A DNA stretch of 58,634 nt from Armatimonadota bacterium (GTDB taxonomy: Bacteria > Armatimonadota > Armatimonadia > Armatimonadales > Armatimonadaceae), in the NCBI GenBank assembly GCA_043754515.1, contig JAYUUO010000027.1, positions 1-58,634 of the forward strand, in the 5' to 3' direction. The first letter of the stretch is position 1; every line of letters begins with the position of its first letter. This document shows, one piece after another, positions 39,001 to 48,000 of this stretch. Made by a program: the position numbers.

Positions 39001-42000
39001 AGGCTCTACTCCGGCTCCGTCTTCTTCTTGTTCTGGGGCACCTTTCCCCCAACTGGCATGACCTTCTTGAAATCTTCCGGCGAAACAGTGTCGTCGCGCT
39101 TTCCGAGCGGTGCTTTCGCGCCCGCGTCGAGGCGCATCACCACCAGTCGCCAATCTTCGCCCGACTCGGGGTTCATCTGCACAACCACCGTAGTCGCGCC
39201 CATGACGTAACTCGCACCCGCCTTCCCCGCCCCGCCGAGTTGCGTTTTGGTGAAGCCGAGTCCCGCCATCTGGGTGTCGTAGAAGGGGAGCACTTTCACC
39301 GGGGTGTCGGGCGTGCGGAATCCGACCGCAGTCATATTGCTCGCGGGGGTCAAGCCCCGAAAGAGACGGGTGACCCGCGCGCTACGTGTCATCTCCTCGT
39401 CAATCTTTGCTTGAGGATATACCGGAACCCCATCGAGCGCGGCGACTTCGGCGGCGGTGTTCAAAGGCTTATCACGCTCGGTGTTCAGCATCACGGTGCC
39501 GACCCCGATTACCAGAAGTAGGAATCCCACGATCACGCCGCAACCGATCCCGACGACGCCGAGTGGGGTGATTTTGCGGCGCGGTTCGGTCGGCGGCGTG
39601 GGTTCGGAAGAGGGGATGGGCTTGGACATTATGCACAGAATTGTACCATCTGGGTTCTGATTCGGACACGGGCGGGTTCATTCCAGGGCGGTGGACCTTT
39701 CTGGAGCGCGCGGAACGTGCGCGTTCCGGTGCGGGACGTTTCCGGTAGGTCGCGCGGGGCGACGGGACGTGGACGTGGACGTTGCCGGTGGGTCGCGCTC
39801 CGCGTCGGACAGCGGGGCGTTTCCACCCGCGACCCGGTATCCGCTCGCCGGTCGGAAAGCTCCACCGCCTGTTCTCGCGATCAGGATGCAAGCAACAAAA
39901 CTGTGACTGTGACAAAATCGCCCTGCCGTTCGGGGCACCCCAGCCACCGGGGAGGAGTACACCCCCGCCCCGGCGAATCTACATCGAAATTCAAGGCAGA
40001 TTATGGAGACCCCTGACAATGCGTTTCGATGTTTCCACGGATGAGGTAGGCGAGAAGAATCGCCGTATAACTGCTTTCCTGGCGAAGCACGGCTATGCGG
40101 GGGTGATTATCAGCAATACCCGTAACTTCGCCTGGGCGACGTGCGGGCGCGACAACCATGTCGTTCGGGGGAGCGACGCGGGGGTCGGGCACGCGCTTTA
40201 TCTGGCGGACGGCGGCAAATATATCCTCTGCGATAATATCGAGGAGCCACGTTTGCGGGAAGAGGAAGGGCTTGAGGAGCAGGGGTTCCGGTTCGTGACC
40301 GGTCCGTGGTATGCGTTCAGCCCGGCGGCGGAGGCGGCGAAACTCGTGGACGGCGGCACGCTCGCGGTGGACACGATGCTGAGCGGCGCGAAGTTGACCA
40401 TGGTCGGTGGGGCCGATCTCGCCTGCCTGCGCTACGAACTGACCCCGGCGGAAGTCGAGCGATATAAGTGGCTTGGCACCGTGGCGGGTCAGGCGATGAG
40501 TGCCACGGCGCAGGTGATCAATCCCGGCATGACGGAGCACCAGGTCGGCGCAATGCTCGACCACTACCTGACGGACGAAGGGGTGACGCCGTACCTGACG
40601 CTGGTCGCCTCGGATGAGCGGATCAATCGCTACCGGCACCCGATCCCGACGGACAAAATTGTGGAGCGGGTCGTGATGTTCGTGACGTGCGCGCAGGCGT
40701 TCGGACTGATCGCGTGCGTGACGCGCCTCGTCTCGTTCGGTGCGCCGGACGTTGGCCTTCGGAAGCGGCACGAAGCGTGTTGCTACGTGGACGCGGTGTT
40801 CAACCTCGGCACGGTGCCGGGCGCGGATGTCGCCGCCCTCTTCGACGCGGGCCGGGAAGCCTACGCTTCGGTCGGGTACGCGGACGAGTGGACTTTACAC
40901 CATCAGGGCGGCGCGACGGGATACGCGGGGCGCGATTATCTGGCGGTGCCAGGTATCCATGCGACGGTGCAGGTAAACCAGGCTTTCGCGTGGAATCCGT
41001 CCATCACGGGTACGAAGACGGAAGACACGGTACTCGCCACGCCGGAAGGGCTGGTGCTACTGACCCCATCCCCCGACTTCCCGGCGGTACACGTTCGGAC
41101 GCCGCTCGGTGCGATGGACCGTCCGGCGATTCTGGAGCGGTAGGTTCACACGAAAGATCGAGGAGATAAAAAAGCGATGGCTCGGATACTGCTGGTGGAG
41201 GATAACGAGGATAACCGCGACATGCTCGGGCGGCGTCTTCAGCGCAAAGGGCACGAGATTCTGATCGCGGTGGACGGCGAGGAGGGCGTCGCGAAGGCGG
41301 CGAGCGAGCAGCCGGATATGATCCTTCTGGACATGAGTCTGCCGCGTATGGATGGATGGACGGCAGCACGGACGATCCGCGCCACCGGCTCGACCGTGCC
41401 GATCATTGCGCTGACCGCGCACGCGATGCAGGGCGACCGCGAGAAGGCGTTGCAAGCCGGGTGCGACGATTACGACACGAAGCCAGTGGAACTGCCGCGG
41501 CTCGTTGAGAAAATGGACGCGCTACTGAACCGGGCCGCGTAGCCGCCGTGATGATCCGTCCCCGTTTAGTCGGACGGGCGACGGGCGCGGGCGGGTCTAG
41601 CGAAGCACGACCCGCCCGCGCCCTTGTCGCGGTTTCCCGCCGTGGATGCTTTTTTGTCGCGCTCGTTTAATGCGGGTGCGCGTGTCCGAACATCTCGGCG
41701 AGGGTCAAAATGCGATAAAACGCGAGCAACACCACGAGGATCAGGTAGCCGCGTAGCAATAGCAACGATATCCGGACGCTGGGCGTCAGCTTAATGGTAC
41801 CCAGACCCTCGGCACTCCGCTTCTTCTCCGGGGTGTCATCCAGGGGATGAACGACATACAGATCGTGATCGGTCGGGCTCATGCCGCTCAGCGTGTCCGT
41901 GGTCATTTGTTGAGTCATTGTCTTTTCCTTCTTCCTTCGTAACTGTTAAGCCGACCCGCCGGGGATCAGGTTCGGCGCGATAACTTGCACCGCCAGGATG

Positions 42001-45000: not shown

Positions 45001-48000
45001 GAAAGTTCGTTCTTCCGTGAGAAGGCGGGGCGCGGTTCGGGGAACCCTACGCTTTACAAAAGGCGCGGGGGCGGGAACATGGCGCTCGGCATCGTCACGG
45101 AAAGCCGCGCCCCCAGGGAAAAGGGAGACGCGACATATTCGGTTGTGATTTGTACGATGTGAAAATCGCTACTGTCTGCGTCCATATTGTTACCTTTCGT
45201 TTGCAAGCGGTCCGAAACGAAACGGGCAGGGCGGTTGATGCCTTAAAAAACAAAAAACCCTCTGCCCGGACATGCGGGAAAAGGGTGACACGCTGTGCAA
45301 AAGACAGCCGTGCTAAGGAGTGCTATCACGAATGATCTCACCCCCTGCTTTCCCCACTCGTTTGAGTTTCGGCACCGCGCACCGTAAGAGAAGAACGACG
45401 GATCGTCCTCCCAGCCACGTTAAGCAAACCCTTATTTCGGGAGTGCCTGTTATACCCATCGCGGACATCTCTGGATGTTGCAGGGCAGTGGCTTATGTGT
45501 TACGCGGGAACCTCACCTACCGAGGAACCTGAACTATTCGATTGATGGCCATTCGTTCGCCTACATTACCAGGCAAACTCCGGCACGGCGAGATGGTACC
45601 ACCGCCTTTATACACTGTCAAGAGCGACGCGGATAAATATCTCCGTGCGTCCAGCGATTGCTGAGTTAGAGTGGTGCCGCGCCTTCGCGGGGCGGACCGA
45701 ACGGCGAACGATAGTTCACGGAGGAAAAGTAGAAGTAATGACTGAAATTACGCGCAGACGCCGATACAATGACGCGAACACAACATCACGTACACCATGG
45801 TGCGCGGCTATACGGCATGTAGTGTATAGCCTTGCGCTTAAAACCGCAACATTATGTCGCGCGACGCGCGTGGCTGACTAAAAACAACCAATCAAATTTA
45901 TCAACAGGGCATGCAGGGAGCAACAAGAGTTATTCGATGGTAATACCGGAACCGTTTGCGAAAATTAAAGTGATCGGCGTGGGCGGGGGCGGTACCAACG
46001 CCGTGAACCGCATGATCGAGGCCGGCCTGTCCGGCGTGGACTTCTGGGCGATGAACACCGATGTACAGGTTCTGGCAACCTCATCGGCGGACAACACCTT
46101 GCAACTCGGCGTCCGCCTCACGCAGGGGCTCGGCGCGGGCGGCGACCCCGAACGCGGTCGCGAGTCCGCCGAGGAGTCACGCTCCGACATCCAGAAAGCC
46201 CTCGACGGCGCGGACATGGTGTTCATCACGGCGGGCATGGGCGGCGGCACCGGCACCGGTGCGGGTCCGGTCATCGCCGAGATCGCCCGCTCAATGGACA
46301 TTCTCACCGTGGCCGTGGTCACCAAGCCGTTCCGCTTTGAGGGGCCGCGCCGCGACCGCCTCGCCCGCCAAGGGATTGATAACCTGCGCCAGCACGTGGA
46401 CACGGTGATCATCATCCCGAACGACCGGCTGTTAAACGTCGTCGAGAAGAAGGCGACCCTGATGGAAGCGTTCAAGGAAGCCGACGACGTGTTGCGGCAG
46501 GGTGTGCAGGGTATCTCCGACATCATCACGATTCCGGGCCTGATCAACGTTGACTTCGCAGACGTCAAGGCGGTCATGTCGGACGCGGGCACGGCTCTGA
46601 TGGGCATCGGGTTCGCCGAAGGGGATCACCGCGCGGTGGAAGCGGCGCAGATGGCTATCTCGTCGCCGCTCCTCGAGACCGACATTTCGGGTGCCCGCTC
46701 CGTGCTCGTGAATGTCACGGCAGGCGCGGACCTGACGCTCGCCGAGGTGAACGAGGCGTTGGAGCTGATCCAGAACGGCACCGACGGCGAGGACGCGAAC
46801 ATCATCTTCGGGGCGGTGATCGACCCGCGCCTGATGGGCGCGGTACGTATCACGGTACTCGCGACCGGTTTCGAGGCGCGTCAGGTCGCGACCACGGCGG
46901 TGAAATCGTACCCGGCGGCGGCGACCACCCCGCTCCGGCGACCGGTAGCGATGCCTGCGATGGGTAGCACAGTTGCCAGCGCGAACGGTAGCGATATGGC
47001 CGAGGCGCAGAGGGATCAATCCCCCCAGCCGTCGCGCACGGCGACGCTGACCGCCGAGGACACGATAGACATCCCGGCGTTCCTGCGCCGCAAGCCGTAG
47101 GCACTCCAGGTCATTCAGTCGGGGGCGGGGCATTTTGCCCCGCCCCCGAAATGATCGCTTCTATACCTCGTCGTCGGGTGTGTCGAAGTTGGCATACACG
47201 TTCTGTACGTCGTCGTCCTCTTCGAGCCGGTCAATCATCTTTAGAATCTGCTCGGCGTCCTTGCCGCTGATCATCACCATGGTGACCGGTATCATCGCGG
47301 TTTCGCCCGAGATGTAGTGCAGTTTCGCCTTATCAACGGCTTCCTTAACCCGGAAGAAGTCCTCGAACGCGGTGGAAACTTCGAAGCCACCGTCGTCGGT
47401 CGTGGTCACGTCCTCCGCGCCCGCGTCCAGCGCGACCTCCATCAGCGCGTCCTCCGTGGTCGCGCCGGGATCGAATAGGAATAGCCCCTTCGACTCGAAC
47501 AGGTAGGCGACACTCCCCGACTCACCGAGGCGGCCCCCGGCTTTGGTGAAGATGGAGCGGACATTGGCGACGGTGCGCTGTTTGTTATCAGTGAAGCACT
47601 GCACGAGCACCGCGACGCCGGACGGGCCGTAGCCCTCGTAGGTCAGCTCCTCGTAGTTCGCGCCTTCGAGTTCGCCGGTACCACGCTGGATCGCCCGCTT
47701 GATCTTCTCGGCGGGCATGGATGCTTTGCGGGCGTTGTCAACGGCCTGCCGCAATGAAAGGTTCAGGTCCGGGTTGCCGCCGCCTCCCTTAGCCGCCATA
47801 ATGATCTCGTTGGCGAGTTTCGTGAACGATTTCGAGCGCACCGCGTCCTGCTTGCCTTTGCGCAGACGGATGTTGTGCCATTTACTATGTCCCGACATGG
47901 TATATTTTCGCTGTGCCGGAGCCACTCCGCGAGTGACAAACGGCGTCCTTTATTCGTTAAAATGATCGTTCGATTTTACGGCGAACGGGGGGGTTGCGCA

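What a model noticed while it worked through the whole genome (the two positions that open the first line are those of the whole stretch)
41946..45531. Horizontally acquired M-box riboswitch in front of an OprB-family porin and an Nramp-related transporter
A strong M-box (Mg2+) riboswitch (C27 45346-45531, minus strand) precedes a two-gene unit of an OprB-family outer-membrane porin (g00485) and an Nramp-family transporter (g00484) that lacks the DPGN and MPH metal-site motifs of Mn2+/Fe2+ Nramps. Boldest reading: this is a complete two-membrane Mg2+ import route for a diderm cell, with an OprB-type porin acting as a Mg2+-regulated outer-membrane channel and an NRMT-type Nramp as inner-membrane Mg2+ importer, captured as one cassette by horizontal transfer. 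New would be an outer-membrane component in an M-box regulon and a Mg2+ role for an OprB-like porin.
Evidence so far: rna.tsv: RF00380 123.2 bits, E 7.7e-29. The same model finds no match (E<=1e-6) in any of the 70 other Armatimonadales genomes. Gene table: g00485 OprB 477 aa, g00484 Nramp 446 aa, 25% identical to S. aureus MntH, same strand, 95 nt apart. g00484 has 'DNDAG' where Nramps have DPGN and 'APW' where they have MPH; a regex finds no DPG. and only one .PH (WPH 335). 40 of 80 loci with OprB homologues (33-49% id; Proteobacteria, Bacteroidota, Acidobacteriota, Gemmatimonadota, Verrucomicrobiota) were scanned with Rfam and none has an M-box within 1.5 kb. One full-text search (M-box+riboswitch+porin+magnesium) gave only a general review. 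A sigma-70-like promoter (TTGACA-17-TACCAT with TG) lies 62 nt [...]
(Added by a program. Inside this text positions count along the whole contig: contig position 1 is position 1 of the stretch shown here. "Call 12" and the like, gene names such as g00115 and contig names such as C1 are that model's own, and its searches are not shown. The text may have been shortened before it was handed on; [...] marks where a part breaks off. The agent that wrote the report below was given it as the finding of a first reader that could run no searches.)

Follow-up and report, generated by a model that had tools for sequence, protein, structure and literature searches.

The report
Magnesium-riboswitch-controlled porin and transporter operon
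A magnesium-sensing RNA switch sits in front of an outer-membrane pore and an inner-membrane magnesium transporter, a pairing that recurs in several related bacteria and points to a dedicated pore for letting magnesium across the outer membrane.

Summary
The M-box is real (123 bits, full length). The transporter has the EleNRMT Mg2+-site residues. The porin folds as an OprB-type barrel; 9 of 120 homologues are labelled 'high affinity Mn2+ porin'. The link is not confined to one genome: an M-box lies directly before this porin in three more Armatimonadota genomes and one metagenome contig, and 17 of 36 Armatimonadota porin loci have an M-box or Mg2+ gene beside them. Transfer is supported, but from within the phylum: the NRMT nests in another family, and two congeners lack the cassette at this site. 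The porin's origin is unresolved. Best reading: a low-Mg2+-induced two-membrane uptake operon; Mg2+ passage through the porin is inferred, not shown. Precedents lower the novelty: M-box–NrmT, MnoP–MntH for Mn2+, and the M-box pe20–ppe31 operon. This scan noted the Pro-Pro uORF before on other DNA. A β-barrel porin under M-box control was not found in my paper searches.

The parts
45593..45621 (-). sigma-70-like promoter (TTGACA-17-TACCAT, extended -10 TG)
   Evidence: consensus match only
45346..45531 (-). M-box (ykoK) Mg2+ aptamer, full length
   Evidence: RF00380, 123.2 bits, model 1-169/169
45348..45357 (-). antiterminator 5' strand (the aptamer's 3' closing strand); pairs 10 of 10 with 45283-45274 in the terminator's 5' arm
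45245..45286 (-). intrinsic terminator: hairpin 45286-45257 (-15.4 kcal/mol) plus U-rich run 45256-45245
   Evidence: equivalent hairpin found in 18 of 18 leaders tested
45054..45185 (-). 43-codon uORF with SD; acidic start, Pro-Pro-Pro near the end; divergent member (12 extra codons) of a conserved M-x4-6-[EQKR]PP leader-peptide family; contains hairpin A at 45132-45106
   Evidence: translation not shown
44976..45033 (-). hairpin B (-32 kcal/mol) with U-rich tail; its 5' arm can alternatively pair with uORF bases 45114-45105 (-20.7 kcal/mol): candidate second attenuator
   Evidence: the alternative pairing does not covary across 18 leaders (p=0.25)
43381..44814 (-). OprB-fold outer-membrane porin with signal peptide and C-terminal Phe; the only OprB-family gene found in the genome
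41946..43286 (-). NRMT-type (Nramp-related) divalent cation importer with the EleNRMT site residues
41667..41918 (-). 83-aa single-helix membrane protein (HPLDD motif, no Pfam family); constant neighbour of this NRMT clade, possible accessory subunit
41583..41623 (.). 15-bp perfect GC-rich inverted repeat at the operon end, between convergent genes

Best explanation
A low-Mg2+-induced, three-gene uptake operon of a diderm bacterium. With ample Mg2+ the M-box aptamer folds and holds its 3' strand, so the terminator at 45286-45245 forms and transcription stops. At low Mg2+ that strand pairs with the terminator's 5' arm and RNA polymerase reads through (structure shown by computation; the mechanism follows the B. 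subtilis ykoK switch). A Pro/acidic uORF with a second hairpin probably adds a translation-coupled checkpoint like mgtL (inferred). The OprB-fold porin then lets divalent cations, Mg2+ among them, into the periplasm (inferred from regulation and neighbours). The NRMT, probably with its 83-aa partner, imports Mg2+ across the inner membrane (inferred from residues and family). The unit most likely came from another Armatimonadota lineage (family f8) and sits at a variable site upstream of ftsZ, in a genome where CorA and MgtE were not found.
For: Full-length M-box. Terminator in 18 of 18 leaders tested; cognate aptamer/arm duplex -14.9 vs -12.6 kcal/mol swapped, better in 15 of 18, permutation p=0.00015. 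Forced OFF and ON folds are close in energy, -107.9 vs -104.2. Of 19 other Armatimonadota M-boxes above cut-off, 13 lead to an NRMT, 3 to this porin, 1 to mgtC, 1 to an ABC pair and 1 to a small unknown gene. M-box directly before the porin: 4 of 36 Armatimonadota porin loci, window included, in four genera. 17 of 36 have an M-box, NRMT or its small partner gene, MgtC or MgtE-type gene on the same strand within 4 kb. In metagenome contig L108 the porin has its own M-box, separate from the M-box of the downstream MgtE_N-NRMT pair. The porin also sits beside MgtA-type ATPases (L109, L110, L155, L171) and full MgtE (G264), so it pairs with several unrelated Mg2+ systems. NRMT: best solved relative is 7QIA, E 2.5e-55 against 2e-14 for MntH; D55, E133, T224, Met-to-Ala, His-to-Trp and Q379 of EleNRMT are all matched. 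Porin model pLDDT 87, best fold match P. putida OprB, E 3.6e-20. CorA and MgtE not found in the genome (92.7% complete). NRMT-small protein complex: weak support, score 0.38 vs best control 0.00; the mark was reached by 116 of 157 solved and 2 of 215 mismatched pairs, but scores at or under 0.60 are more often wrong than right; runs agree in at least 93% of contacts, partner pLDDT at least 67.
Against: No expression or transport data. Kin are not independent, so the p-values overstate. Outside the phylum the porin family is not Mg-specific: 12 of 80 metagenome loci are Mg-linked, 2 of 80 lie beside MntH-type Nramps, 2 of 80 beside kdp, and only 2 of 80 have an M-box. 12 of 60 neighbours scanned are MscS channels and 3 are TerC. 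16 of 36 Armatimonadota loci show no M-box, Mg gene or ABC partner, though several have short flanks. Homologues are labelled Mn2+ porin (9 of 120). One NrmT-clade protein without an M-box behaved mainly as a Mn2+ transporter (PMC4072509 section 11). EleNRMT G58 is Ala here, and the MgtE_N partner gene is absent. The uORF 2:3 pairing does not covary (p=0.25). The porin tree does not reject an order-native origin (p=0.22). The genome also has an MgtA-type ATPase elsewhere.
Confidence: 0.65

Rival explanations
1. The operon is Mg2+-regulated, but the porin is a general cation or small-solute pore that is simply induced when Mg2+ is low. It has no particular selectivity for Mg2+.
For: Family neighbours outside the phylum are varied: MscS 12 of 60, TerC 3, cation efflux 2, kdp in 2 of 80 plus G087. 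Both acidic and basic residues are conserved in the alignment of 119 homologues.
Against: Within Armatimonadota the porin is repeatedly tied to M-boxes and to four kinds of Mg2+ gene. MnoP shows that a porin can be metal-specific (PMC9334652 passage).
Confidence: 0.2
2. The porin and NRMT are in effect a Mn2+ (or mixed Mn2+/Mg2+) uptake pair, an MnoP-MntH analogue that came under an M-box.
For: 9 of 120 porin homologues are labelled 'high affinity Mn2+ porin'. The porin lies beside MntH in L131, L158 and G234b. EleNRMT carries Mn2+ in vitro and A. capsulatum NrmT rescued a Mn2+ defect.
Against: The genome has a separate MntH-type gene (C308, 56% to a typical MntH). T225, whose EleNRMT equivalent T224 is needed for Mg2+ transport, is present in 30 of 30 clade members. 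The regulator is an M-box, and neighbours are mgtC, mgtA and mgtE.
Confidence: 0.1
3. The porin is a passenger inserted into an M-box-NRMT leader, or a sugar porin, with no role in metal uptake.
For: 13 of 19 other M-boxes lead to NRMT without the porin in front. The Pfam family is carbohydrate-selective OprB.
Against: Three genomes and L108 have the M-box directly before the porin with no NRMT between. Gene order varies while the linkage persists. Only 15% identity to P. putida OprB. None of 60 neighbours scanned is a sugar transporter.
Confidence: 0.05

Closest known systems
M-box-regulated NrmT/NRMT (C. acetobutylicum Ca_c0685, PMC4072509; EleNRMT, PMC8806188)
   Same: M-box upstream of an Nramp-related gene; NDAG/TTIAPW site with the D55, E133, T224, W229 and Q379 equivalents.
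   Different: A separate clade about 31% identical to the MgtE_N-linked type. It carries an 83-aa membrane partner instead of MgtE_N, has Ala for G58, and shares the operon with a porin.
MnoP-MntH two-membrane Mn2+ uptake of Bradyrhizobium (Hohle et al. 2011; seen only through passages of PMC9334652 and PMC6011978)
   Same: An outer-membrane porin working with an Nramp-fold importer (co-regulation with mntH is recalled); homologues of this porin carry the automatic label 'high affinity Mn2+ porin'.
   Different: Control here is by a Mg2+ riboswitch and the partner is an NRMT. Direct sequence comparison with MnoP could not be made.
Mycobacterial M-box pe20-ppe31-mgtC operon (PMC12810186)
   Same: An M-box controls proteins needed for Mg2+ uptake, thought to act at the outer membrane (title of the cited Wang 2020 paper); a conserved uORF with a Pro lies between switch and genes; mgtC is linked.
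   Different: PE/PPE proteins, not a beta-barrel; translational and Rho-dependent platform there, intrinsic terminator here; the uORF is described as specific to mycobacteria.
mgtL/corL leader-peptide attenuators of enterobacteria (PMC11552253)
   Same: Short Pro/acidic uORF with alternative hairpins upstream of a Mg2+ transporter.
   Different: Here it lies in tandem behind an M-box and its terminator; no sequence relationship was tested; the switch pairing is not supported by covariation.
Pseudomonas OprB carbohydrate porin (PDB 4gey)
   Same: Fold (TM 0.67/0.75, E 3.6e-20) and Pfam family.
   Different: 15% identity; no sugar-transport context among the neighbours examined.

Membership tests
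M-box (ykoK) riboswitch RF00380 | Full-length match above the gathering score | tested here: met
   123.2 vs 44 bits, 1-169/169
M-box (ykoK) riboswitch RF00380 | OFF-switch platform: terminator competing with an antiterminator that uses the aptamer's 3' strand | tested here: met
   (computational; covariation p=0.00015, related genomes)
M-box (ykoK) riboswitch RF00380 | Mg2+-dependent folding and repression | not testable with these tools
   needs probing or a reporter
NRMT / NrmT | Site Asp kept; Thr added, Met to Ala, His to Trp in TM6; TM3 Glu; TM10 Gln | tested here: met
   D53, T225, A228, W230, E131, Q379 align with EleNRMT D55, T224, A227, W229, E133, Q379
NRMT / NrmT | Gly in place of the Nramp Asn on TM1 (G58) | tested here: inconclusive
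   Ala56 in 29 of 30 clade rows, one row gapped: small, but not Gly
NRMT / NrmT | Adjacent MgtE N-domain gene (most members; typical, not universal) | tested here: not met
   no MgtE_N match in the genome; replaced by an 83-aa membrane gene
NRMT / NrmT | Mg2+ transport | not testable with these tools
   needs complementation or proteoliposomes
MntH (Mn2+/Fe2+ Nramp) | DPGN and MPH motifs; curated cut-off | tested here: not met
   99.8 vs 430 bits; DAGA and APW
OprB porin family | Pfam PF04966 above cut-off and beta-barrel fold | tested here: met
OprB porin family | Carbohydrate selectivity / sugar-uptake context | tested here: inconclusive
   no sugar transporter among 60 neighbours scanned; substrate untested
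MnoP Mn2+ porin | Sequence orthology with B. japonicum Blr0095 | not testable with these tools
   sequence not obtainable; only automatic labels on 9 of 120 homologues
MnoP Mn2+ porin | Link to mntH and Mn2+ limitation | tested here: not met
   here under an M-box beside an NRMT; MntH lies on another contig
mgtL-type leader-peptide attenuator | Conserved short ORF with Pro/acidic codons and SD upstream of Mg2+ genes | tested here: met
   in-frame ATG 18 or 21 nt before Pro-Pro in 14 of 14 other leaders with the hairpin motif (22 examined); synonymous variation keeps the peptide; the window's copy is divergent
mgtL-type leader-peptide attenuator | Mutually exclusive hairpins coupled to translation | tested here: inconclusive
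   strong in the window (-20.7 kcal/mol; shuffle p=0.015, 1 of 18 leaders), no covariation across 18 (p=0.25)

The most novel reading that the evidence does not exclude
This OprB-fold clade is a Mg2+-selective outer-membrane channel of classical diderm bacteria, of a kind my paper searches did not find. It is gated at the RNA level by two stacked Mg2+ sensors (M-box terminator, then a Pro-Pro leader-peptide attenuator). Armatimonadota fill the same slot interchangeably with an unrelated 12-stranded barrel, and place an orphan ABC permease/ATPase pair (AAA_assoc_C) under the same switch as a candidate further class of Mg2+ transporter.
Probability: 0.35. Interest if true: 0.8.

Novelty: new variant of a known kind. 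Interest (0 to 1): 0.6.

Why it matters
Mg2+ is usually assumed to cross the outer membrane through general porins (recalled). A porin placed directly behind a Mg2+ riboswitch in several genera, and beside NRMT, MgtE, MgtA and MgtC genes elsewhere, is a concrete candidate for a dedicated Mg2+ entry channel that can be tested in proteoliposomes. It suggests that the 'carbohydrate porin' and 'Mn2+ porin' labels are wrong for part of this family. The same regulon yields three more testable unknowns: an 83-aa NRMT partner, a 12-stranded barrel and an ABC pair without a binding-protein gene in the loci examined.

Tried and rejected
Distant-donor transfer: rejected. All 28 Armatimonadota porins in the tree form one clade against metagenome outgroups (support 96), taxon-labelled close hits are all Armatimonadota, and GC3 (0.85, 0.81 vs genome mean 0.78) and codon use (82nd and 49th percentile) are host-like. 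Mobile-element marks: no long flanking repeat in 41100-46000; no integrase or IS noticed among the ORFs, which were not all scanned. The M-box tree is unresolved (2 of 19 branches starred); nearest aptamers by identity are f8 at 82-83%. The small protein as a homologue of the tail gene of a second NRMT in L002: E 0.078, not supported. uORF attenuator pairing as a conserved feature: not supported. Mutual exclusion of porin and the 12-stranded barrel: 0 shared genomes among 8 and 28 of 251, expected about 0.9, not significant. Expression: no RNA holder listed; the two runs laid are contigs, probably DNA, and give no evidence. No solved structure matches the porin by sequence (best E 0.13). Plasmid search gave only 51 records under 60% identity, not opened. 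The MnoP primary paper is not held. Paper searches: M-box+riboswitch+Nramp 6 papers; MnoP+OprB+manganese 0 (17); M-box+riboswitch+PPE31 1 listed; mnoP+Bradyrhizobium+outer membrane 4 (23); ribosome destabilization+mgtL+magnesium 8 listed; NRMT 4 listed; MnoP+porin+manganese+mntH 3 (72); Armatimonad+riboswitch+magnesium 0 (94); ykoK/uORF/NrmT set 3 listed; 'M-box riboswitch'+outer membrane+porin 1 general review, listing only. The library lacks most subscription papers. No supplement was opened; Fig. S5 of PMC4072509 (NrmT gene contexts) is an image and could show porin neighbours.

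
Full report
OBSERVATION. 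The M-box is at 45531-45346 on the minus strand, full length, 123.2 bits, and is the only one in the genome. A sigma-70-like promoter lies about 60 nt upstream. No other genome of the order has an M-box (1 of 71), as stated.

EXPRESSION PLATFORM. Folding shows a hairpin at 45286-45257 followed by a 12-nt U-rich run, which the pattern scan misses. Its 5' arm (45283-45274) pairs 10 of 10 with the aptamer's 3' strand (45357-45348). An equivalent terminator was found in 18 of 18 Armatimonadota leaders tested. The cognate strand/arm duplex beats swapped pairs (-14.9 vs -12.6 kcal/mol; 15 of 18; permutation p=0.00015; related genomes, so overstated). G136 and the three metagenome leaders, which gave weak, unclear or no antiterminator/terminator signal, were left out of that test. 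Forced OFF and ON folds differ by under 4 kcal/mol. This matches the transcriptional OFF-switch described for B. subtilis ykoK (PMC12810186, introduction read).

uORF. After the terminator comes an SD and a 43-codon ORF (45185-45054). Of 22 M-box leaders examined, 15 carry a CCTCC/GGAGG-type hairpin. In the 14 other than the window an in-frame ATG lies 18 or 21 nt before a Pro-Pro pair; in the window it lies 57 nt before a Ser-Pro pair, i.e. 12 extra codons. Copies with synonymous changes or a degraded hairpin keep the peptide (G109, L172, G282), and copies occur without an M-box (L168, L007, G282, G199). A second strong hairpin follows (45033-44984, -32 kcal/mol, U-rich tail). In the window a trp-like alternative pairing is possible (-20.7 kcal/mol), but it does not covary across 18 leaders (p=0.25) and beats shuffles in only 1 of 18. 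The resemblance to mgtL, whose Pro and acidic codons sense Mg2+ (PMC11552253, passages), is a lead. I found this element before seeing note e1-7416600, which describes it on another genome.

TRANSPORTER. The best solved relative is 7QIA (E 2.5e-55; MntH structures 2e-14). Its residue numbers match those given for EleNRMT in PMC8806188 (passages); that 7QIA is EleNRMT is otherwise recalled. D53, E131, T225, A228, W230 and Q379 align with D55, E133, T224, A227, W229 and Q379; G58 is Ala here. The TM6 motif is nearly invariant in 30 clade rows. The 83-aa gene accompanies 7 of 8 loci and 14 of 15 clade loci. It has one predicted helix and no family. A complex prediction gave weak support (0.38 vs best control 0.00; 116 of 157 solved and 2 of 215 mismatched pairs reach the mark, and such low passes are more often wrong than right; contact agreement at least 93%, partner pLDDT at least 67). 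A cyanobacterial relative is followed by an MgtA above cut-off (L003), and L002 by a similar P-type ATPase. Caveat: an NrmT without an M-box behaved mainly as a Mn2+ transporter (PMC4072509, section 11 read).

PORIN. The model (pLDDT 87) is a beta-barrel closest to P. putida OprB, at 15% identity. The best 119 homologues are 47-62% identical; 9 of the 120 listed are labelled 'high affinity Mn2+ porin', and the 4 with a taxon are Armatimonadota. It was found in 8 of 251 phylum genomes, 11 of 71 in the order and 19 of 42 in family f8. I examined 36 of the 40 Armatimonadota matches with wide flanks. Four have the M-box directly upstream: the window, G318, G310 and G300, at 470-535 nt, in four genera. 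Seventeen have an M-box, NRMT or its small partner gene, mgtC or MgtE-type gene within 4 kb on the same strand. Three more lie beside an ABC pair that is itself M-box-led elsewhere, and 16 show none of these, several with short flanks. Orders vary: mgtC-NRMT-small-porin (G157, G281, G282, G284), mgtC-porin (G086), NRMT-porin-MgtE_N (G301, G302, G314), mgtE-porin (G264, porin in two frames). 10 of the top 26 NRMT hits share a longest-contig length with a porin hit, an indirect sign of more linked pairs. In 80 metagenome loci, 12 are Mg-linked (one near-duplicate, two on the opposite strand), 2 lie beside MntH, 2 beside kdp, and 2 have M-boxes. L108 has one M-box before the porin and a second before MgtE_N-NRMT; L172 has M-box-uORF-NRMT-small-porin. 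Other neighbours are mostly unrelated to Mg2+: MscS 12 and TerC 3 of 60 proteins scanned (58 of 68 candidates plus 2). The family as a whole is therefore not Mg-specific; the Armatimonadota clade is strongly Mg-linked.

M-BOX REGULON. M-boxes were found in 10 of 151 phylum genomes (9 above cut-off), 2 of 80 further ones and 12 of 42 in f8. The 19 other copies above cut-off lead to NRMT (13), porin (3), mgtC (1), the ABC pair (1) and a small unknown gene (1). Three NRMT operons under M-boxes (G022, G223, G305) end in a different signal-peptide protein that models as a 12-stranded barrel like NanC/KdgM. So 7 of 20 M-box operons contain an outer-membrane barrel of one of two kinds.

ORIGIN. The window's NRMT nests among f8 sequences (SH-aLRT 99), and an AU test rejects grouping with the order's own copies (p=1.7e-5; 30 rows, distant NRMT types left out). 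Two proteins in that clade carry the source label Chthonomonadaceae. The porin groups weakly with f8 (82), and an order-native origin is not rejected (p=0.22; three divergent order copies left out). The aptamer's nearest relatives are f8 (82-83%), but its tree is unresolved. In congener G264 the flanking peptidase and ftsZ genes are 300 nt apart. In G266 a two-component cluster occupies the site and contains the response regulator that the window retains. Composition is host-like. Best reading: an old transfer within the phylum into a variable site. CorA and MgtE were not found in this 92.7% complete genome; an MgtA-type ATPase and MntH were.

COMPARISON. Each part has a precedent: M-box-NrmT (PMC4072509), the Mn2+ porin MnoP (seen only through review passages), and the M-box pe20-ppe31 operon with its own uORF (PMC12810186; abstract, introduction and passages read). 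A beta-barrel porin under an M-box was not found in searches; the library lacks most subscription journals.

VERDICT. The regulatory link is solid and recurrent (about 0.9). Mg2+ as the NRMT's job is likely (about 0.8). The porin as a route for Mg2+ is likely but unproven (about 0.65), and true selectivity is less certain (about 0.35). Within-phylum transfer is about 0.7. New variant of a known kind; interest 0.6.

Noticed in passing
L245:3634-6727, L246:3685-6946, L248:1996-5204, L079:6039-9185, L255:3068-6321; own genome L280:1676-4937: A NitT/TauT-like ABC pair (doubled permease plus ATPase with AAA_assoc_C; no binding-protein gene noticed beside it) occurs in 5 of 42 f8 genomes, always behind the porin (4) or directly behind an M-box (1); 3 of 5 are M-box-led. 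Candidate new Mg2+-related transporter.
   Followed up: partly
L065:5625-6266, L064:4111-4812, L066:7735-8478, L262:4198-4818: Uncharacterised 12-stranded beta-barrel (no Pfam; nearest atlas family YjbH in 48% of a cluster) after NRMT-small; in 28 of 251 genomes, also beside MntH in 3 loci.
   Followed up: partly
L002:1950-2100, L003:5290-5400, L004:2565-2700: Cyanobacterial NRMT leaders share a different conserved hairpin, preceded in L004 by an acidic/Pro-rich short ORF; no Rfam match. Possible undescribed Mg2+ leader.
   Followed up: no
L062, L064, L065, L060, L061, L108, L157, L172 (upstream of NRMT or porin): A further short conserved ORF beginning ML-x-M-x-W...L-x-x-x-W, sometimes in frame with the porin; not seen in the window.
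   Followed up: no
L249 (about 430-60, minus), L066:5437-5757, L178:2490-2798: A 100-125 aa gene of no Pfam family (one copy scanned) lies directly behind an M-box in G317 and in NRMT operons of G202 and G282.
   Followed up: no
L060:4377-4667, L178, L179, L253, L249, L007:5267-5551: A CsoR/RcnR-family metal-sensitive repressor gene recurs just upstream of these leaders.
   Followed up: no
L079:4120-4640 (G199): The leader keeps terminator and uORF but has no aptamer; probably the kind of 'M-box relic' described in note e1-7416600.
   Followed up: partly
L185:6237-7083 (G264, same genus): Porin homologue split over two frames directly behind an intact mgtE; pseudogene or assembly error.
   Followed up: partly
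window 41177-41542: Orphan response regulator, 79% identical in DNA to one inside a sensor-kinase cluster at the same site in G266; the kinases are missing here.
   Followed up: partly
L282:2869-4864 (own genome): A second, more distant NRMT-like gene followed by DUF1003, without an M-box.
   Followed up: no
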